A stretch of 64,000 nt of DNA from a virus (IMGVR_UViG_3300025168_000038:1-64000), one strand, 5' to 3'. Shown: positions 11,685 through 49,714, counted from the stretch's first letter. Made by a program: numbers and translations. Notes: generated from the letters alone by a model not told the origin.

Positions 11685-11984
11685 CTATCCTATATTAGAT
11701 GCTGCTTTTTCCATTGCTTCTTTAAATGCTTTTGCATCTTCAGAGTCTGGGGCTGCGTTATCACCTTCTTTAGAAGCAGCATATGCTTGAGCTAAATACA
11801 TTTGTGCTTGCATTCTTTCTGCTCTTGCCTTTTCTATTGTAGCTAATAGATCTTCATATTCAGCTTGTACAGTTAAATGAGGTATATTATCTTTATAAAA
11901 AGATGTGATTTCTTCTCTACGTGCTGCTAATTCTTCTTTGCTTAATTGTGGATCCTTATTTGGATCAAGATTTAATTCTGCCAT
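11685..11984 (-). CDS. Hypothetical coiled-coil protein
   Basis: 99-aa ORF with a TAnnTTTG element upstream. Confidence 0.6.
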   Translation of the reverse strand: MAELNLDPNKDPQLSKEELAARREEITSFYKDNIPHLTVQAEYEDLLATIEKARAERMQAQMYLAQAYAASKEGDNAAPDSEDAKAFKEAMEKAASNIG

Positions 11985-12057: not shown

Positions 12058-12348
12058 TTACCACTTTACTTTATCTGCCCAGTATGCAGCACTCATTTTA
12101 CCTTTGGCAATATTTCTTCCGTGTCTTGCTTTAAAACTTTTACGTCTTGCTTTTTGTTTAGCAGATTCACCTGCTTTAGGTTTACCTGCAGTTTTTACAC
12201 CTTGTTGACCAAAACGTATAGTTTTAACTTTGTCTCCTTGTTTAGCAACAACTACATGTGACTTTTTTGGATGTGAAGGAGTTCTTTTAGGTTTGTTATA
12301 ACCTGACACTCCTGCTTTTGTTAACCTACTATCTTTTTTTGAAGCCAT
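12058..12348 (-). CDS. Small highly basic protein
   Basis: K/R-rich; KTIRFGQQG, RRKSFKARH and SAAYWADKVKW. Confidence 0.7.
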   Translation of the reverse strand: MASKKDSRLTKAGVSGYNKPKRTPSHPKKSHVVVAKQGDKVKTIRFGQQGVKTAGKPKAGESAKQKARRKSFKARHGRNIAKGKMSAAYWADKVKW

Positions 12349-12350
12349 AA

Positions 12351-12593
12351 TTATCTATTTTTACCTTTGTGTAAACCATGACTAGCATGTTGTTTACCTT
12401 TTTTTGTAGCAGCTCTTTTCTTAGCGTTTGCTGCAGCTAATTTCTTTTTACCTTTCTTAGTACTCTTCAACTTAGAAATAGTCTTAGACGGAGCATATAC
12501 TTCACCAGTGTCAGAAGATTTCTTTCCGCTTGCAGTTCTCCATTTCTGTTTGGTCCATCTAGTAAGACTTTTTTGTTGTTTAGTCTTTGCCAT
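12351..12593 (-). CDS. Small basic protein (resembles the C-terminal half of DUF5872-type proteins)
   Basis: QKSLTRWTKQKWRT...GEVYAP...KKRAATKKGKQ. Confidence 0.6.
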   Translation of the reverse strand: MAKTKQQKSLTRWTKQKWRTASGKKSSDTGEVYAPSKTISKLKSTKKGKKKLAAANAKKRAATKKGKQHASHGLHKGKNR

Positions 12594-12861: not shown

Positions 12862-13056
12862 TTATTTTTTTGATTTATATCCGCCTCCGTTTGATTTATA
12901 TCTTTTTGCAAGCATTTGAGCTTTACGTGCAGACCATTGACCAGGAGCACCACCTTTACCACCAGCCTTAATTGAATTAAATAATCTCTTACGCATTGTG
13001 GGTTTAGTATAGTTTCCTGAACTATTTACCGTACTTTTCTTTTTTTTAACTGCCAT
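12862..13056 (-). CDS. Small basic protein (resembles the N-terminal half of DUF5872-type proteins)
   Basis: YTKPTMRKRLFNSIKAGGKGGAPGQWSARKAQMLAKRYKSNGGGY. Confidence 0.7.
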   Translation of the reverse strand: MAVKKKKSTVNSSGNYTKPTMRKRLFNSIKAGGKGGAPGQWSARKAQMLAKRYKSNGGGYKSKK

Positions 13057-33773: not shown

Positions 33774-34058
33774 ATGGCAGAAATAACTAATGAACAAATA
33801 ATGGATGTAAATATTCTATTAGCAATGAATAGATGTATGTCTGAAATAGCACATAATTTACAATATATACACACTCAACAGGTCAAACAAAGAATTAAGC
33901 ACGTTATAAAAACTGTAGACCTATATGATAGAGAAGTTAAAAGAAAGTTAAACACAGATCAGTCACAAGCAATAGAAGATATATATGACTGTATAATGGA
34001 CTTAGTTCTAGAAGCTAGAGAAGTTACTCTTAAAAATGCCAAGAATGAAAGAGTATAA
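33774..34058 (+). CDS. Hypothetical protein (likely start MAEIT)
   Basis: ORF. Confidence 0.55.
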   Translation: MAEITNEQIMDVNILLAMNRCMSEIAHNLQYIHTQQVKQRIKHVIKTVDLYDREVKRKLNTDQSQAIEDIYDCIMDLVLEAREVTLKNAKNERV

Positions 34059-34218
34059 TACATATATCATGCAAATAGGAGAAGGTATGGCCGGTGCTCT
34101 TAAAGCTCCTGAAAAGAAGAAGTATACACGTATAGATAAGAGGACTAAGAAATATGGTAATCCTAGAAAACGTAAAGATGATTGGCAAGGTACAATATAT
34201 AAAACAAAAAAAGTATGA
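34036..34218 (+). CDS. Small basic protein
   Basis: K/R-rich C-terminal half; coupled to the polymerase start. Confidence 0.5.
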   Translation: MPRMKEYNTYIMQIGEGMAGALKAPEKKKYTRIDKRTKKYGNPRKRKDDWQGTIYKTKKV

Positions 34219-36209
34219 AAAATCATTGGGTAATGGATTATGAAACTCTATTTGATTGTTTCACTGCCGTATTTGAAGATTACAAAACTAACAAAACAGA
34301 AGTCTTTGTAATATGCAGGCTAAGAAATGATCTGACAGAGTTTATACAATTTTTACAACAAAATATAGAAAAGAAAGAATGGCATATATCATATAATGGT
34401 TTAGGATTTGATGCTCAGGTTACACACTATATCTTAGACAACCATAAAAGTTGGTGGAATATAGATGGTAATGACGTAGCTTACACTATATATAAATATG
34501 CACAGAGAACAATTGAGAAAAGTAATAATAGAGAGTTCAGTGATTATCCACAATGGAAAATGCAGATAGGTCAGATAGACTTATTTAAGTTACATCATTG
34601 GGATAACCCGGCTAAACGTTCAAGTCTTAAGTGGATACAATATAGTATGGACTGGGAGAATATCCTAGACATGCCTATACATCATACATCTAAGATAGAT
34701 AACCAAGAAGATCTAGACACTATTCTAGAGTATTGCGTTAATGATGTAAGATCTACTAAAGAAATATTTAATAGGTCTACTGATTTAATAAGACTAAGGA
34801 AAGAACTAACTAATACATATGGTATTAATATGTTTAGTGCATCAGAGCCAAGGATTAGTAAAGAAGTATTTGGTTATTTCTTAACACGTATGTTAAATAT
34901 ACCTAAGAGAGATCTTAGAAACATGAAGACTTATCGTGATACTGTAAAAGTAAAAGATATAATATTACCATACATCTCTTTCACATCACCAGAGTTTAAT
35001 ATGTTACTTGATAGGTTTAAATCTATTGAAGTAAAAGGAGATAAACTTAAAGGTAGTTTTAAATATAGTGTAAACTATAAAAATGTTAAGACACACTTTG
35101 GTTTAGGTGGTGTTCATGGTGCTGCTAGCAAAGGAGTATATGAGTCTTCAGATGATATGGTTATAATGTCTTCTGACGTAACAAGTTTTTACCCTAATCT
35201 AGCAATTAAGAATCAATTTGCTCCTGCACATTTTCCAAAGAAAGCATTTTGTGATCAGTATGAGTGGTTCTTTACTGAAAGAAAGAAAATACCTAAAAGC
35301 AACCCTATGAATTATGTATATAAAATTATACTTAACTCAACGTTTGGTCTTAGTAATGATGAAAAGAGTTTCTTTTATGACCCTGAGCTGTGTTTACGTA
35401 TTACAATTAATGGCCAGCTTACTCTAATGATGTTATATGAACAGATTATGGAAAGAATACCTGGTGCTGTTCCTTTGTTACAGAATACAGACGGTGTAGA
35501 GACTTTAATACCAAGAGAATACGTGGATGATTATATGGGTATTTGTAAAGAATGGGAAGAAAAGACAAATCTTAACCTAGAACATGATGAATATCAAAAA
35601 CTAGTATTAGCTGATGTCAACAATTATATAGGTGTGAATAACTTTATAGATGTTGATATTACTAAATGGAGAGAAGTTAAACAAAGTCAACCTCATTACC
35701 TATTTAAGGTAGAGAATGACAAGTTTAGCTTTGCTCCTGTTAAGTTAAAGGGACGTTTTGATTTTCATAATTTACAATTGCATAAGAATAAGTCCAAACT
35801 AGTTATACCAAAAGCTATATATCAATACTTTGTTAATAATATATTGCCTGAAGACTATCTAGATGAAAATAAAAATATTCTAGATTACTGTATAGGAGGT
35901 AAATCAAAAGGTGATTGGGAACAAGTAGCTAGATACATTAAAGATGGTGCATTTGCTGAAGATAAATTACAAAAGATAAATAGATATTTCATCTCTAATG
36001 ATGGAGTAAAGATTATCAAAGTAAATAAAAAAGACAATAGAGAAATACAACTAGAGTCTGGCAGATGGGTTCAAACTATTTTTAACGTATTAAAGGTAGA
36101 GCCTAAGTGGGAAAACTATAATATTAATAAAGCATATTACATGCAAGCAATAGAGACTGAGATCAATAGTATCTTGACAGTCTCAACTAATCAATTAAAA
36201 CTATTTTAA
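34215..36209 (+). CDS. polB: DNA polymerase family B, crAss-type
   Basis: Exonuclease motifs DYE, YNGLGFD and YCVNDV; polymerase motifs SDVTSFYPN, KIILNSTFG and NTDG. Confidence 0.92.
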   Translation: MKNHWVMDYETLFDCFTAVFEDYKTNKTEVFVICRLRNDLTEFIQFLQQNIEKKEWHISYNGLGFDAQVTHYILDNHKSWWNIDGNDVAYTIYKYAQRTIEKSNNREFSDYPQWKMQIGQIDLFKLHHWDNPAKRSSLKWIQYSMDWENILDMPIHHTSKIDNQEDLDTILEYCVNDVRSTKEIFNRSTDLIRLRKELTNTYGINMFSASEPRISKEVFGYFLTRMLNIPKRDLRNMKTYRDTVKVKDIILPYISFTSPEFNMLLDRFKSIEVKGDKLKGSFKYSVNYKNVKTHFGLGGVHGAASKGVYESSDDMVIMSSDVTSFYPNLAIKNQFAPAHFPKKAFCDQYEWFFTERKKIPKSNPMNYVYKIILNSTFGLSNDEKSFFYDPELCLRITINGQLTLMMLYEQIMERIPGAVPLLQNTDGVETLIPREYVDDYMGICKEWEEKTNLNLEHDEYQKLVLADVNNYIGVNNFIDVDITKWREVKQSQPHYLFKVENDKFSFAPVKLKGRFDFHNLQLHKNKSKLVIPKAIYQYFVNNILPEDYLDENKNILDYCIGGKSKGDWEQVARYIKDGAFAEDKLQKINRYFISNDGVKIIKVNKKDNREIQLESGRWVQTIFNVLKVEPKWENYNINKAYYMQAIETEINSILTVSTNQLKLF

Positions 36210-36210
36210 A

Positions 36211-36528
36211 ATGACGTATAGACCATTGCCTGAAGGGACTACTATTAAAGAGTCCCTTCTCCATGGCCTTGGATTATATTCTACTAAATCTATTAGTAAG
36301 GATACAGTCCTAGGCATATCACATATTAGAAATACAAAATATCAAAACAATTATATTAGAACCCCGCTAGGAGGTTTTATAAATCATAGTGACACACCTA
36401 ATCTAAGAAAGATTGGTAGTGCTGAATCAAGAGATATAGAAGCAGGGGTTATGATGATCCAAACAACTAAAGACATCCTCCCCGGGGAAGAGCTAACACT
36501 TAAATATAATCTATATGCAATTGAATGA
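36211..36528 (+). CDS. Stand-alone SET-domain protein (putative lysine methyltransferase)
   Basis: HGLGLYSTKSI, GFINHSDTPN and KDILPGEELTLKY. Confidence 0.9.
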   Translation: MTYRPLPEGTTIKESLLHGLGLYSTKSISKDTVLGISHIRNTKYQNNYIRTPLGGFINHSDTPNLRKIGSAESRDIEAGVMMIQTTKDILPGEELTLKYNLYAIE

Positions 36529-36742
36529 AGTCAAGAAAGGAACAAAACTAAAATTAATTAAAAGAATGCATTACTTAGGTAAAAAACCTGAGGCAATGAA
36601 TATATTAGATGGAGAGCTTCTAGTATTTGAAGCTAATGATGGCTTATATTCTATTTGTACAGATAGAGAAGGCAACCAATACAACATTCCAGGATGGTCT
36701 AAGGTAGAAATAATTGAAGAACCTTTGGCTGACTCAGAATAA
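36515..36742 (+). CDS. Hypothetical protein
   Basis: 75-aa ORF. Confidence 0.5.
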   Translation: MQLNEVKKGTKLKLIKRMHYLGKKPEAMNILDGELLVFEANDGLYSICTDREGNQYNIPGWSKVEIIEEPLADSE

Positions 36743-36775
36743 TTTATTATATTTACACTTTAAAAGTTTATAATT

Positions 36776-37630
36776 ATGGGGTATACAAAACCTAAAGAAA
36801 CAACAAGATGGCATTTAGAAAATGCACCCTTACCTAACCATGGTGAGTCATATACAGTAATATCACATGGAGAAGTGATAGAAAACACATATAAATTATT
36901 ATCAGATAGTGGATTTATGGTCTCTAGAGAGATGTATAGATCCAGTAAGAATGCTAACATAGCTCAAGGAGTATATCATATATACCCAACTAATCCAACA
37001 GATGGAGACATTATAATGGAAAAGGAACTTGGAATGATGTTTGCTTGGACTAATTCATATGATAAAACAAAAAGCTTTGCTTCAGCAATTGGGGCCTACG
37101 TTGCAGTTTGTAACAACGGTATGATAGCCGGAGACATGATGAACTATAAAAGAAAACATAGATGGTCTGCCTCACATGATATACATGTTCACATGAGTGA
37201 TCAGATGAAGTCAGCAGAGAAGTACTATAAAAGACTGATAAAAGATAAAGAGGCACTAAAGAATGTTATAGTTACACATAAAGAAGCAGCTGAACTAGCT
37301 GGCCGTTTATTTATTGAAGAGGAGTTGCTTGATTCACAACAGTTATCTTGTGTTAAACAAGAACTAATCAAGCCTTCTTATAACTATTCAGTAGGTGCAG
37401 AGTCAGGATGGGCCTTTTATAATCATATAACACATGCATTAAAGAAAGCACATCCACGGGACTGGGTCAATGATCAGCAGAACTTTCATGACTTTATAAC
37501 TGTTGAGTTATTAGGATCACCTGCATCTAAACCTATGTTTGAAAAGCCTGCAGAGTATGTAGACATGGGTCAACTTAGTATTGATGTGGATTTAGTAGAG
37601 CAAGATAAATTTACATTTGATATATTATAG
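36776..37630 (+). CDS. DUF932-like protein
   Basis: YTVISH, NSYD, VCNNGMI and WAFYNHITHALK. Confidence 0.7.
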   Translation: MGYTKPKETTRWHLENAPLPNHGESYTVISHGEVIENTYKLLSDSGFMVSREMYRSSKNANIAQGVYHIYPTNPTDGDIIMEKELGMMFAWTNSYDKTKSFASAIGAYVAVCNNGMIAGDMMNYKRKHRWSASHDIHVHMSDQMKSAEKYYKRLIKDKEALKNVIVTHKEAAELAGRLFIEEELLDSQQLSCVKQELIKPSYNYSVGAESGWAFYNHITHALKKAHPRDWVNDQQNFHDFITVELLGSPASKPMFEKPAEYVDMGQLSIDVDLVEQDKFTFDIL

Positions 37631-37710
37631 AGTATGCTAGAGGATATGCTATTATTTTTTTTATTTCTATTCCTCTTATGGTTTGCTTTAACAGATCAAA
37701 TGGACAAATA

Positions 37711-37762
37711 GGGAGAAACCAACTGGGGTCTGAGTTTTTGCATTCTTAGGCCCCGCCCTCCC
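37711..37762 (+). ncRNA. Putative structured intergenic RNA
   Basis: GGGAG / CTCCC outer stem and GGGGTCTGAG / CTTAGGCCCC inner stem. Confidence 0.4.
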
Positions 37763-37792
37763 AATATAATACCTGTAAAGATTTAGTAACAC

Positions 37793-37984
37793 ATGAAAAA
37801 ATTTATTGAGTTTGCACTAATTTGGTACAGTCAACAGATGGCCATACCATTTTGGATCGTTGGTCATATACATTTAAGCGTAAACATATATCAAGACATA
37901 CATGAAATACTAGCTAGCATGGGGTTAAATCTAATCGTACTAGTTGGGTTTATAATAGACTATAAAAAAAATAAAGACAAATGA
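37793..37984 (+). CDS. Small membrane protein
   Basis: Two hydrophobic segments. Confidence 0.55.
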   Translation: MKKFIEFALIWYSQQMAIPFWIVGHIHLSVNIYQDIHEILASMGLNLIVLVGFIIDYKKNKDK

Positions 37985-38283
37985 ATTCAAAAGAAAGAAA
38001 AGAGAGACCAGTCTATACTGGAGTATTAAAATATTTTCCTGATGCTATCCTGGAAGTAGCAAGGGTATCGTTAGCTGGGAACAAACAACATCATCCTGAT
38101 CAACCATTACACTGGGATCGTACAAAGTCTAATGATGACCTAGATGCTTTATCTAGACATCTTATAGATGCTGGTAAAATAGATAATGATGGTATACGTC
38201 ACTCTGCTAAAGTAGCGTGGAGGGCCTTGGCTAACTTACAGAAAGAAATAGAAAAAGCTTATATAATTAAAAATGACTTATGA
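37981..38283 (+). CDS. dATP/dGTP diphosphohydrolase-like protein (DUF5664-type)
   Basis: FPDAILEVARVSLAGNKQH...W...DALSRHL...D.DG.RHSAKVAWRALA. Confidence 0.75.
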   Translation: MNSKERKERPVYTGVLKYFPDAILEVARVSLAGNKQHHPDQPLHWDRTKSNDDLDALSRHLIDAGKIDNDGIRHSAKVAWRALANLQKEIEKAYIIKNDL

Positions 38284-46789: not shown

Positions 46790-46987
46790 TTATTTTTTCA
46801 TTTTACCTAATGTTAAAGCAAGCCTAGCACGCTGTGCAGTCTTACCACTTCCTTTTGCTTTCTCTCTCAACCAGCTTTTTTTAATTGTACCATCTGCCTT
46901 CATGGCTCCTGCTCTTTTTGCAGTTGCTTTTAAAGCACCAGGCTTTTTAATTGCCCCTTTGATCCAATTTTTTTTCTTAGCTGCCAT
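46790..46987 (-). CDS. Small highly basic protein
   Basis: KNWIKGAIKKPGAL...QRARLALTLGKM. Confidence 0.7.
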   Translation of the reverse strand: MAAKKKNWIKGAIKKPGALKATAKRAGAMKADGTIKKSWLREKAKGSGKTAQRARLALTLGKMKK

Positions 46988-46992
46988 CCTTA

Positions 46993-47436
46993 TTATTTTT
47001 TACGTCCACTTGATCTGTTACCAGAATAAGCTCTTTTACCTGCAGCTTTTTTAGCTCCTTTACTTTCATCTCTTCTAGACTTCATAGATTGTTTCTTCTT
47101 TCCGTTTCTCATTCCTAAAGACTCATTTAATCTAGAATTGTAACCCTGCTTTTTCTTTTTCTTTTTAACAGCTCCACCTTTTTTCATCATTCCTTGTACA
47201 GGATCTAATACTGAACCACCATTATCTTTAAACATTTCTAAACCACCAGCTGCAGCCATTGTATCCATAGCCATAGCTTGTGGAGTAAGATCTCTCATTC
47301 CATCAATTGATGATGTAAAGCCTCCCATTCCGGTTCCTCCCATATCATATCTTTTCATGTTATTTACTTTTTTCTTTTTTTTCTTTGCTGAAGAGCTTCC
47401 ACCTATTTTGTAAGCATTTCTCATATTGTTTGGCAT
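46993..47436 (-). CDS. Basic low-complexity protein with K/M-GG motifs
   Basis: YKIGG, YDMGG, MKKGG and poly-K runs. Confidence 0.65.
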   Translation of the reverse strand: MPNNMRNAYKIGGSSSAKKKKKKVNNMKRYDMGGTGMGGFTSSIDGMRDLTPQAMAMDTMAAAGGLEMFKDNGGSVLDPVQGMMKKGGAVKKKKKKQGYNSRLNESLGMRNGKKKQSMKSRRDESKGAKKAAGKRAYSGNRSSGRKK

Positions 47437-49481: not shown

Positions 49482-49583
49482 TTATTTTTTACTATCTTTG
49501 GTTTTACATAAGTGCTTTCTACAATAACCCATACAGATTTTTCCTCTTGAAAGCCATTGTATTAATAAACATAAGTTTCTCAT
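49482..49583 (-). CDS. 33-aa Cys-rich basic peptide (not in ORF track)
   Basis: MRNLCLLIQWLSRGKICMGYCRKHLCKTKDSKK; ATGA overlap with the upstream gene. Confidence 0.5.
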   Translation of the reverse strand: MRNLCLLIQWLSRGKICMGYCRKHLCKTKDSKK

Positions 49584-49714
49584 CTTCCTTGACCTCTATA
49601 TTTTTTTTTATAATTCTTACTACTTACTAAATTTGAGTTTTTAGACTTAGAGTGTACTCCTGGTCTTTTAGCTCTACTAGGTTTAGCATATGTATTGTGT
49701 AATATCCTAGACAT
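49580..49714 (-). CDS. 44-aa basic peptide (not in ORF track)
   Basis: MSRILHNTYAKPSRAKRPGVHSKSKNSNLVSSKNYKKKYRGQGR; TAATG coupling. Confidence 0.65.
   Translation of the reverse strand: MSRILHNTYAKPSRAKRPGVHSKSKNSNLVSSKNYKKKYRGQGR

What the first reader, a model, noticed from the sequence alone, without database searches (positions are those of the whole stretch)
36211..36528. Minimal SET-domain lysine methyltransferase next to the DNA polymerase: candidate phage protein-methylation system
Seen: a 105-aa ORF 1 nt after the polB stop carries the three SET signatures (HGLGLYSTKSI, GFINHSDTPN, DILPGEELTLKY with the terminal Tyr) and has no pre- or post-SET domains. Established: SET domains are SAM-dependent protein lysine methyltransferases, and a comparably minimal one is chlorovirus vSET. 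They are not part of the usual crAss-like gene set as far as I know. Inference: a bacterial host has no canonical histones, so the substrate could be host nucleoid or ribosomal proteins, the phage replisome, the phage HU-like protein, or the many Lys-rich mini-proteins encoded here. That would make a writer plus histone-tail-like substrate system.
Basis: partly seen in the sequence, partly recalled or inferred. Interest (0 to 1): 0.8.

Follow-up and report, generated by a model that had tools for sequence, protein, structure and literature searches.

The report
Optional mini SET methyltransferase in marine phage
The 105-residue gene after the DNA polymerase is a real, very small SET-type methyltransferase, but it is an optional gene swapped among many unrelated marine phages and a few marine bacteria, and nothing ties it to this phage's lysine-rich mini-proteins.

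Summary
Observation confirmed. The ORF at 36211-36528 (+) starts 1 nt after the polB stop. It passes the Pfam SET threshold (38.3 vs 22.4 bits) and keeps the GxG, NHSxxPN and ELxxxY motifs. Its model is confident (pLDDT 92.5) and best matches vSET and MLL1 SET domains (Z about 11). dN/dS is 0.12-0.23.

The gene is not specific to this phage. There are 867 clusters at 50% identity and at least 582 IMG/VR contigs, in at least 10 gene contexts (pelagiphage, cyanomyophage, T4-like, two crAss-like lineages). Relatives also occur in about 5% of sampled Pelagibacteraceae and Flavobacteriaceae genomes.

In this phage group the gene is optional. Only 13 of 80 close relatives have it near polB, one has it elsewhere, and two complete genomes lack it. 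Copies in the polB slot are polyphyletic.

The writer-plus-substrate idea failed its co-occurrence test. The basic mini-proteins are 87-96% conserved in SET-less genomes, and Lys-rich genes are not enriched beside SET (6 of 75 loci vs 4.8 expected).

Most likely it is an active SAM-dependent methyltransferase acting on a broadly conserved protein lysine. A small-molecule substrate is a serious rival, given BurB and the SAR11 gene context.

The scan noted phage mini-SETs before on other DNA. Databases already label such proteins SET-domain; I found no paper that studies them.

The parts
36211..36528 (+). Mini-SET gene, 105 aa, stand-alone SET-domain methyltransferase
   Evidence: ORF. Pfam PF00856 38.3 bits, above the 22.4 cut-off. 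PHROG 28741 over the full length, 6.8e-19. AF2 pLDDT 92.5. Foldseek top hit vSET 3kma_A, TM 0.68. VIA Z 11.0 to MLL1 and 10.9 to vSET.
36262..36273 (+). H18-G19-L20-G21, the GxG SAM-binding motif of SET-N
   Evidence: G21 is invariant and G19 is at least 90% conserved in 87 diverse homologues. It aligns to the 'GxGl' motif of MLL SET domains.
36358..36375 (+). R50-T51-P52-L53-G54-G55, a family-specific signature just before the NHS motif, in the place of a long SET-I insert
   Evidence: R50 and G54 are invariant; T51, P52, L53 and G55 are at least 90% conserved. The motif RTPLGGF[IYV]N retrieved 243 genome hits.
36376..36402 (+). F56-I-N58-H59-S60-D-T-P63-N64, the NHSxxPN cofactor/pseudoknot motif
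   Evidence: N64 is invariant; F56, N58, H59, S60 and P63 are at least 90% conserved. It aligns with FNHS of vSET and INHSCxPN of MLL.
36484..36516 (+). G92-E-E94-L-T-L-K-Y99-N-L-Y102, the ELxxxY motif with the catalytic Tyr, plus a second conserved Tyr; only 6 residues follow Y99
   Evidence: E94 and Y99 are invariant. Y99 aligns to the Tyr of vSET 'ITISY' and MLL 'ELTYDY'. The consensus ends 'KYxLY'. The last pLDDT block (residues 101-105) averages 52.
36210..36775 (+). Variable accessory-gene slot between the conserved polB and DUF932 genes; here it holds SET and a 75-aa ORF
   Evidence: In 80 relatives with polB 75-97% identical, the polB-to-DUF932 distance ranges from about 30 nt to about 2.8 kb. 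SET is in this slot in 12 of them.
36515..36742 (+). 75-aa ORF overlapping the SET 3' end by 14 nt; not a dedicated partner
   Evidence: No Pfam or PHROG match. Among relatives it is found with SET in 7 loci and without SET in 8.
34215..36209 (+). Family B DNA polymerase, the upstream neighbour, probably co-transcribed
   Evidence: PHROG 1252, 7.8e-128. There is a 1-nt gap to SET, which leaves no room for a promoter or terminator.

Best explanation
The gene encodes a catalytically competent, stripped-down SET-domain, SAM-dependent methyltransferase. It has SET-N and SET-C only, almost no SET-I insert, and no post-SET region. It is transcribed with the replication genes; the 1-nt gap to polB suggests translational coupling. 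It is an optional gene sitting in a variable slot between polB and DUF932, and the same small family has been exchanged among many unrelated marine phages and some streamlined marine bacteria. Because the family works in very different phage backgrounds, its substrate is most likely something common to many marine bacteria or phages. The most probable case is the epsilon-amino group of a lysine on an abundant conserved protein (a nucleoid, translation or replication protein), modified during infection as a host-takeover or fine-tuning function. It is unlikely to be a substrate private to this phage. Shown here: the ORF, family membership, fold, motif conservation, purifying selection, patchy distribution and lack of linkage to the basic mini-proteins. 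Inferred: SAM binding, methyl transfer, that the substrate is a protein lysine, and the timing of expression.
For: Pfam SET above the curated cut-off. Family profile vs PDB: MLL4 2.7e-12, vSET 4.2e-10, LegAS4 1.8e-8. AF2 pLDDT 92.5, pTM 0.81. 108 Foldseek PDB matches at E<=0.001 (those listed are SET or PR domains), top hit vSET. VIA: 272 chains at Z>=8, the 50 listed all SET or PR domains, top Z 11. GxG, NHSxxPN, E94 and Y99 are invariant or at least 90% conserved in 87 sequences that are 38-82% identical to the query. dN/dS is 0.12-0.23, against 0.04-0.085 for polB. There are 1147 clusters at 90% identity, 867 representatives at 50% identity and at least 582 IMG/VR contigs. Isolates that carry it are Pelagibacter phage Kolga, P-SSM7 and P-RSM6. 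At least 10 distinct neighbourhoods were seen. The gene is optional in this lineage and the polB-adjacent copies are polyphyletic. Precedent for prokaryotic SETs methylating nucleoid proteins: cpnSET on Hc1 and Go1-SET on MC1-alpha, as reviewed in PMC10117894.
Against: There is no biochemical evidence for any member of this subfamily. With only 6 residues after the catalytic Tyr, the lysine channel and SAM pocket may be incomplete without oligomerisation or a partner. That argument rests on my recollection of the vSET and MLL literature and was not tested. SET enzymes are not restricted to protein lysine (BurB methylates free Met, PMC12542666). The SAR11 relatives sit in small-molecule amine and one-carbon gene clusters. 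The many gene contexts give no consistent clue to a substrate.
Confidence: 0.55

Rival explanations
1. Small-molecule methyltransferase, acting as an auxiliary metabolic gene. Like BurB, the mini-SET would methylate a free amino acid or amine (for example Met, Lys or Orn, a polyamine, or a betaine-pathway intermediate). That would change the infected cell's methyl, SAM or osmolyte pools.
For: BurB is a 172-aa SET-domain enzyme shown to S-methylate free methionine (PMC12542666). The SAR11 chromosomal clade of this family lies in two conserved contexts. Both include a DAO+GCV_T (dimethylglycine/sarcosine-dehydrogenase-like) gene. One context also includes a homocysteine S-methyltransferase, a class I methyltransferase, a Rieske oxygenase and an M24 hydrolase. 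One locus (L117) reads as a DAO/GCV_T-SET fusion. Three Flavobacteriaceae MAGs have SET between argC and proC. An invariant Arg (R50) lies next to the active-site motifs, which could bind a carboxylate; this last point is inference.
Against: No sequence-level closeness to BurB was seen: it is not among the listed PDB hits of the phage family profile and does not appear among the 2 hits of the SAR11 protein. Phage contexts are mostly replication or packaging genes, not metabolic ones. Other Flavobacteriaceae contexts are unrelated to amino-acid metabolism. The phage proteins lack the roughly 40-aa hairpin insert of the SAR11 clade. Gene adjacency in streamlined genomes is weak evidence.
Confidence: 0.2
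2. One reading: a dedicated writer whose substrates are this phage's own Lys-rich mini-proteins or its HU-like protein, forming a phage 'histone-tail' system.
For: Prokaryotic SETs methylate basic DNA-binding proteins (cpnSET on Hc1, Go1-SET on MC1-alpha; PMC10117894). In relative G005 a SET of another subfamily is inserted, with a 70-aa ORF, directly after the homologue of the 96-aa basic protein (L242 5025-5339).
Against: The basic proteins at 12058-12593 are 87-96% conserved in complete SET-less genomes. The 65-aa basic protein is absent from SET-positive G002. There is no enrichment of Lys-rich small genes within 2 genes of SET (6 of 75 loci vs 4.8 expected). The SET family is spread over phage lineages that share none of these proteins. 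By my rough estimate, about one random insertion in seven would land beside a basic gene, so the G005 adjacency is not significant.
Confidence: 0.08
3. Non-catalytic or SAM-directed role. The truncated SET would bind or consume SAM, or bind a lysine-bearing partner, without making a specific methyl mark. One example would be lowering SAM to blunt SAM-dependent host defences.
For: There is no post-SET segment, and the last 5 residues have low model confidence. The gene is small, optional, fast-swapping and sits in a variable slot, as many counter-defence genes do. That comparison is from my general knowledge.
Against: The full catalytic motif set, including Y99, is invariant across 87 diverse sequences. 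That argues for chemistry on a defined nucleophile. No PADLOC match. Mere SAM binding would not require the conserved Tyr residues of the substrate channel.
Confidence: 0.07

Closest known systems
vSET (A612L) of Paramecium bursaria chlorella virus 1 (PDB 1n3j, 3kma)
   Same: A virus-encoded, stand-alone, minimal SET domain without pre-SET or a Zn post-SET. It is the best Foldseek match (TM 0.68, 26% identity). VIA Z 10.9, rmsd 2.5 A over 89 residues. Profile E-value 4.2e-10. It has the same GxG, NHS and catalytic Tyr motifs.
   Different: vSET is 119 aa and keeps about 14 residues after the catalytic Tyr; this protein has 6. vSET comes from a eukaryotic virus and methylates histone H3K27 (entry names), whereas this one comes from a bacteriophage whose host has no histones. 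It is not an orthologue: MLL-type SETs score as well or better.
MLL/KMT2 and SET1 catalytic SET domains
   Same: Best sequence-profile matches (MLL4 2.7e-12, MLL1 8e-12) and best VIA Z scores (11.0).
   Different: They have a SET-I insert and a Cys-rich post-SET, sit in very large proteins, and depend on partner subunits. This protein is only the bare core.
Prokaryotic SET proteins that methylate nucleoid proteins (Chlamydia cpnSET/NUE on Hc1; Methanosarcina Go1-SET on MC1-alpha) and secreted effectors (Legionella LegAS4/RomA)
   Same: SET domains encoded outside eukaryotes, some acting on basic DNA-binding proteins (PMC10117894). LegAS4 is a profile hit at 1.8e-8.
   Different: Those are larger cellular proteins with known or proposed targets. 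None is phage-encoded or as short as 97-105 aa.
BurB, SET-domain methionine S-methyltransferase of Burkholderia thailandensis
   Same: A small (172 aa) bacterial SET enzyme (PMC12542666). It shows that a small SET can act on a free metabolite. Like the SAR11 relatives of this family, it is linked to methyl and sulfur or amine metabolism.
   Different: No detectable close sequence relationship here. BurB is a tetramer with a gating loop. The phage gene has no metabolic gene context.
Phage cupin-SET fusions and other phage mini-SETs noted earlier by this scan (e1-3325709, e1-3283554, e1-3413814, e1-5380973)
   Same: Very small SET domains in tailed phages, optional and untested. I saw a cupin-SET fusion among longer homologues myself (P0272), and a SET module at the N-terminus of a 925-aa protein next to a virion structural gene in relative G006.
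   Different: Here the SET stands alone and lies in the replication block, not among virion or ejection genes.

Membership tests
SET-domain methyltransferase superfamily (Pfam PF00856, class V methyltransferases) | Significant match to the family profile | tested here: met
   38.3 bits vs gathering 22.4. In the six-frame search of its own genome, 30 bits, over the cut-off. Family profile vs PDB SET chains down to 2.7e-12.
SET-domain methyltransferase superfamily (Pfam PF00856, class V methyltransferases) | SET beta-fold | tested here: met
   AF2 pLDDT 92.5. All listed Foldseek and VIA hits are SET or PR domains, top Z 11.
SET-domain methyltransferase superfamily (Pfam PF00856, class V methyltransferases) | Cofactor and catalytic motifs GxG, NHSxxPN and ELxxxY with the catalytic Tyr | tested here: met
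   G19, G21, N58, H59, S60, P63, N64, E94 and Y99 are invariant or at least 90% conserved in 87 homologues.
SET-domain methyltransferase superfamily (Pfam PF00856, class V methyltransferases) | SAM binding and methyl transfer | not testable with these tools
   Needs biochemistry.
vSET-like minimal viral histone methyltransferases | Stand-alone SET of 120 aa or less without pre- or post-SET | tested here: met
   105 aa with a single domain.
vSET-like minimal viral histone methyltransferases | Specific kinship with chlorovirus vSET (closest relative) | tested here: inconclusive
   vSET is the top Foldseek hit but is tied with MLL in VIA and is weaker than MLL in the profile search. Identity is 26-28%.
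vSET-like minimal viral histone methyltransferases | Histone H3 substrate | not testable with these tools
   The likely host is a marine Bacteroidota bacterium (terminase and polB relatives in Cellulophaga, Flavobacterium and crAss-like phages). That such a host has no histones is my inference.
   The mini-proteins are 87-96% identical in SET-less complete genomes G007 and G008. The 65-aa basic protein is absent from SET-positive G002.
   6 of 75 loci vs 4.8 expected.
BurB-type small-molecule SET methyltransferases | Sequence kinship with BurB | tested here: inconclusive
   BurB was not seen among the listed PDB sequence hits. I had no BurB sequence by reference for a direct comparison.
BurB-type small-molecule SET methyltransferases | Embedding in a metabolic gene cluster | tested here: inconclusive
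   Not so in phage loci. It holds for the SAR11 clade and for 3 Flavobacteriaceae MAGs, but not for the other Flavobacteriaceae.

The most novel reading that the evidence does not exclude
The 97-105-aa 'RTPLGGFxNHS' mini-SETs are a distinct, unstudied enzyme family shared by marine phages and streamlined marine bacteria (SAR11, some Flavobacteriaceae). Its substrate would not be a histone-like protein. It would be either a universal bacterial protein, modified by phages to take over the cell and in some relatives delivered as a module of a virion protein, or a free amine or amino acid tied to SAR11 methyl-group metabolism. Either case would extend SET chemistry and phage auxiliary functions into new territory.
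Probability: 0.3. Interest if true: 0.7.

Novelty: new member of a known kind. Interest (0 to 1): 0.45.

Why it matters
These proteins are shorter than vSET, which to my knowledge is the usual textbook minimal SET. They are abundant in ocean viromes: hundreds of IMG/VR contigs, including phages of SAR11 and Prochlorococcus. I found no paper that studies them. Identifying the substrate would show what a SET enzyme does in a cell without histones and why unrelated phages keep acquiring it. It would also show whether the SAR11 chromosomal copies, which lie next to dimethylglycine/sarcosine-dehydrogenase-like genes, belong to methylated-amine metabolism. For this particular window the result is sobering. 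The gene is an ordinary optional cargo gene, and the attractive writer-plus-substrate story is not supported.

Tried and rejected
- DNA similarity of 34000-38000 to the phage collection gave no match.
- Dedicated partner: the 75-aa downstream ORF occurs with and without SET, so I rejected it as a partner.
- Functional link to polB: SET is next to polB in only 12 of 80 close relatives, and sits elsewhere in G005 and L198. In other lineages it lies beside RNR, helicase, clamp loader, endonuclease VII, a 2OG oxygenase, or between terminase and portal. I therefore rejected a specific tie to the replisome.
- Co-occurrence and adjacency with Lys-rich mini-proteins were both negative.
- Defence or counter-defence label: no PADLOC match.
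- BurB kinship: not seen in PDB sequence searches.
- Core gene of hosts: only 7 of 151 sampled Pelagibacteraceae and 10 of 201 sampled Flavobacteriaceae genomes carry it.
- Arginine-operon context: it does not generalise beyond 3 MAGs.
- Fused forms are rare: 7 longer homologues, one of them with a cupin domain.
- Literature: eight full-text searches found no study of bacteriophage SET proteins.
- The second structure-prediction job was not used. A monomer model cannot settle the substrate question.

Full report
**Observation**

The window holds an ORF at 36211..36528 on the + strand (105 aa). The family-B DNA polymerase ORF ends at 36209, so one base separates the two genes. The protein ends six residues after Tyr99. 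The next ORF (36515..36742, 75 aa) overlaps the SET gene by 14 nt. Pfam reports a single domain, SET (PF00856, 38.3 bits against a cut-off of 22.4). PHROGs places the whole protein in phrog_28741, 'unknown function' (6.8e-19).

**What kind of genome this is**

The window is the first 64 kb of a 108,143-bp IMG/VR virus record estimated 94% complete.
- Its terminase and portal match the PHROGs that cover crAss-like phages.
- The terminase is 25-27% identical to terminases of gut crAss-like phages, and matches Flavobacterium phage records as well.
- The polymerase is 33% identical to that of Cellulophaga phage phi14:2.

Calling it a distant, marine crAss-like phage of a Bacteroidota host is reasonable, although the host is inferred.

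**Is it a real SET enzyme?**

- A profile built from 87 diverse homologues (38-82% identical to the query) hits solved SET domains: MLL4 at 2.7e-12, MLL1 at 8e-12, vSET at 4.2e-10 and Legionella LegAS4 at 1.8e-8.
- The AlphaFold2 model is confident (pLDDT 92.5, pTM 0.81).
- Foldseek against the PDB puts vSET first (TM 0.68). There are 108 matches at E<=0.001, and those listed are SET or PR domains.
- VIA-align gives Z 11.0 to MLL1 and 10.9 to vSET (rmsd 2.5 A over 89 residues). 272 chains score Z>=8.
- In the 87-sequence alignment S15, G21, G35, R50, G54, N64, E94 and Y99 are invariant. G19, N58, H59, S60 and P63 are at least 90% conserved. These cover the GxG, NHSxxPN and ELxxxY motifs.
- Y99 aligns with the catalytic Tyr of vSET and MLL.
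- Against close relatives the gene has dN/dS 0.12-0.23, while polB has 0.04-0.085.

All sequence and fold criteria for a functional SET methyltransferase are met. SAM binding and methyl transfer remain inferred.

The protein lacks a long SET-I insert and any post-SET segment. At 105 aa (many relatives are 97-99 aa) it is shorter than the 119-aa vSET.

**How widespread it is**

- The word-indexed search found 1147 clusters at 90% identity, mostly 99-aa proteins from marine metagenomes.
- The exhaustive search found 867 representatives at 50% identity, 377 of them below 1e-10.
- At least 582 IMG/VR contigs encode a relative.
- Among deposited phages the hits are Pelagibacter phage Kolga, Prochlorococcus phage P-SSM7, cyanophage P-RSM6 and a marine single-cell virus record. 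The annotated ones are labelled 'hypothetical protein'.
- ESM Atlas and BFVD already label such clusters 'SET domain-containing protein', from Uroviricota and uncultured Caudovirales.
- Eight full-text searches found no paper on bacteriophage SET proteins.
- Earlier notes of this scan describe phage mini-SETs and cupin-SET fusions on other DNA, so the scan has met this kind of gene before.

**Gene contexts**

In 80 viral loci the SET gene sits in at least ten different conserved neighbourhoods:
- after polB (this lineage);
- between an RNR/ferredoxin-like pair and a helicase, with PolA further on;
- after endonuclease VII, with an exonuclease and Sak4 nearby;
- before the clamp loader and T4-type polymerase;
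- before a DnaB-like helicase;
- near another RNR;
- after a 2OG-Fe(II) oxygenase in contigs of up to 176 kb;
- between terminase and portal in a second crAss-like lineage.

Replication and nucleotide-metabolism modules dominate, but there is no single constant neighbour.

**Status within this phage group**

About 549 IMG/VR contigs carry a polB related to this one, and the 80 best are 75-97% identical.
- Of those 80, only 13 have a SET within 4 kb.
- polB and DUF932 are fixed anchors. The distance between them varies from about 30 nt to 2.8 kb, so this is a variable cargo slot.
- In whole records, two complete genomes (G007, 116 kb; G008, 114 kb with terminal repeats) have no SET.
- G005 has a SET of another subfamily in a different place.
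- G006 has only a reduced SET module inside a 925-aa protein.
- On a tree of 121 sequences the polB-adjacent SETs need at least two origins even counting only well-supported branches. The window's SET groups with three close relatives.
- SET is also more diverged than the adjacent polB in the same pair of genomes: dN 0.18 vs 0.02.

The picture is of an optional gene that is repeatedly gained, lost and replaced.

**The writer-plus-substrate idea**

The window encodes several Lys-rich small proteins: 12058-12348, 12351-12593, 12862-13056, 34036-34218, 46790-46987, 46993-47436 and 49580-49714.
- The first two are 87-96% identical in the SET-less complete genomes G007 and G008.
- The 65-aa one is missing from SET-positive G002.
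- The 147-aa one varies independently of SET.
- Across 75 SET loci from many phages, a Lys-rich mini-protein lies within two genes of SET in 6 cases against 4.8 expected.
- The one suggestive case is G005. There SET and a 70-aa ORF are inserted directly after the 96-aa basic protein homologue. By my rough estimate about one random insertion in seven would land beside a basic gene.
- The 75-aa downstream ORF is found with SET (7 loci) and without it (8 loci), so it is not a dedicated partner.

The specific substrate link is therefore not supported. It is also not strictly excluded, because prokaryotic SETs are known to methylate basic DNA-binding proteins (PMC10117894).

**Cellular relatives and the small-molecule rival**

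A scan of one genome per prokaryotic species found 243 hits, and most of the 80 loci kept are Pelagibacteraceae.

SAR11 findings:
- The SAR11 proteins are 123-159 aa, with a roughly 40-aa insert after the NHSxxPN motif.
- They form one well-supported clade, SH-aLRT 98.
- They lie in two conserved contexts. Context A is homocysteine S-methyltransferase, a DAO+GCV_T protein of 801 aa, a class I methyltransferase, a Rieske oxygenase, SET, then an M24 hydrolase. Context B is a class III aminotransferase, alanine dehydrogenase, SET, then a DAO+GCV_T protein of 814 aa.
- One locus reads as a DAO/GCV_T-SET fusion.
- Only 7 of 151 sampled Pelagibacteraceae carry the gene.

Flavobacteriaceae findings:
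- 10 of 201 sampled genomes carry it.
- In three MAGs it sits between argC and proC.
- Elsewhere the context varies.

BurB, a 172-aa SET enzyme, S-methylates free methionine (PMC12542666). A small-molecule substrate for this family is therefore a serious rival, which I put at about 0.2. I saw no close sequence link to BurB, and phage contexts are not metabolic.

**SET as a module of a virion-block protein**

- In relative G006 the N-terminus of a 925-aa protein carries a reduced SET module (Pfam 23.6 bits). This protein is encoded next to a 1463-aa virion structural protein.
- The module lies between conserved flanks, and a QQGG follows it.
- The homologous 891-aa protein of another relative has an unrelated module in the same place.
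- The best BFVD structural match to the window's model is also a 971-aa 'SET domain-containing protein'.
- A cupin-SET fusion exists among longer homologues, as earlier scan notes reported.

Some phage SETs may therefore travel with the virion. The window's copy is free-standing and lies in the replication block.

**Verdict**

- Best explanation (0.55): an active, optional, horizontally exchanged mini-SET methyltransferase whose target is broadly conserved rather than private to this phage, most likely a protein lysine.
- Rivals: small-molecule methyltransferase (0.2), dedicated writer for the phage's basic proteins (0.08), and a non-catalytic or SAM-directed role (0.07).
- Novelty: a new member of a known kind.
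- Interest is moderate. The family is abundant, very small and unstudied, but this copy is ordinary cargo and the proposed system did not hold up.

Noticed in passing
L087-L161 (Pelagibacteraceae genome loci), e.g. L152:4959-5435 and L120:5004-5441: SAR11 chromosomes carry a clade of this mini-SET family (123-159 aa, with a roughly 40-aa insert). It lies in two conserved contexts. Both include a DAO+GCV_T (dimethylglycine/sarcosine-dehydrogenase-like) gene. One context also has a homocysteine S-methyltransferase, a class I methyltransferase, a Rieske oxygenase and an M24 hydrolase. L117 reads as a 928-aa DAO/GCV_T-SET fusion. Only 7 of 151 sampled species have it.
   Followed up: partly
L084:4659-4952 (also L094, L096): In three marine Flavobacteriaceae MAGs a 97-aa SET gene sits inside the arginine operon: argG, argC, SET, proC, argD, argF, argB, argE, with 4-nt overlaps. 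In seven other Flavobacteriaceae genomes the neighbours are unrelated (thiolase, PHP/Ig-like protein, acyl-CoA thioesterase).
   Followed up: partly
L243:1732-4509 (-) = G006 (IMGVR_UViG_3300017786_000003); compare L259:3486-6161: A 925-aa protein lies next to a 1463-aa virion structural protein. It has a reduced SET module at its N-terminus, between conserved flanks and followed by QQGG. The homologous 891-aa protein of another relative has a different module in the same position. This looks like a swappable payload module in a virion-block protein.
   Followed up: partly
window 36210-36775 and loci L162-L241: The interval between polB and the DUF932 gene is a variable cargo slot in this phage group. 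Its length ranges from about 30 nt to about 2.8 kb among 80 relatives with polB 75-97% identical.
   Followed up: partly
L242:5025-5532 (-) = G005: In a 110-kb relative, a SET of a different subfamily and a 70-aa ORF are inserted between the homologues of window genes 12058-12348 (basic, 96 aa) and 11685-11984 (acidic, 99 aa). In the window those two genes are only 73 nt apart.
   Followed up: yes
window 12058-12593 (-): Two adjacent, very basic small proteins (96 and 80 aa) are core genes of this phage group, 72-96% identical in five relatives. They give only sub-threshold Pfam hits to DUF5754 and DUF5872.
   Followed up: partly
L013:5253-6008 and P0272: In contigs of up to 176 kb (which I took to be cyanomyophage-like) SET directly follows a 2OG-Fe(II) oxygenase-like gene. 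A 233-aa cupin-SET fusion exists in metagenomes. This hints at a recurrent pairing of SET with cupin-fold domains.
   Followed up: no
L082 (contig assigned to a Campylobacteraceae MAG), L083, L097: Several 'genome' hits look like phage contigs binned into MAGs. L082 has a 664-aa polB-like ORF, a 76-aa ORF and then SET, the same order as in relative L006. Their host labels should not be trusted.
   Followed up: no
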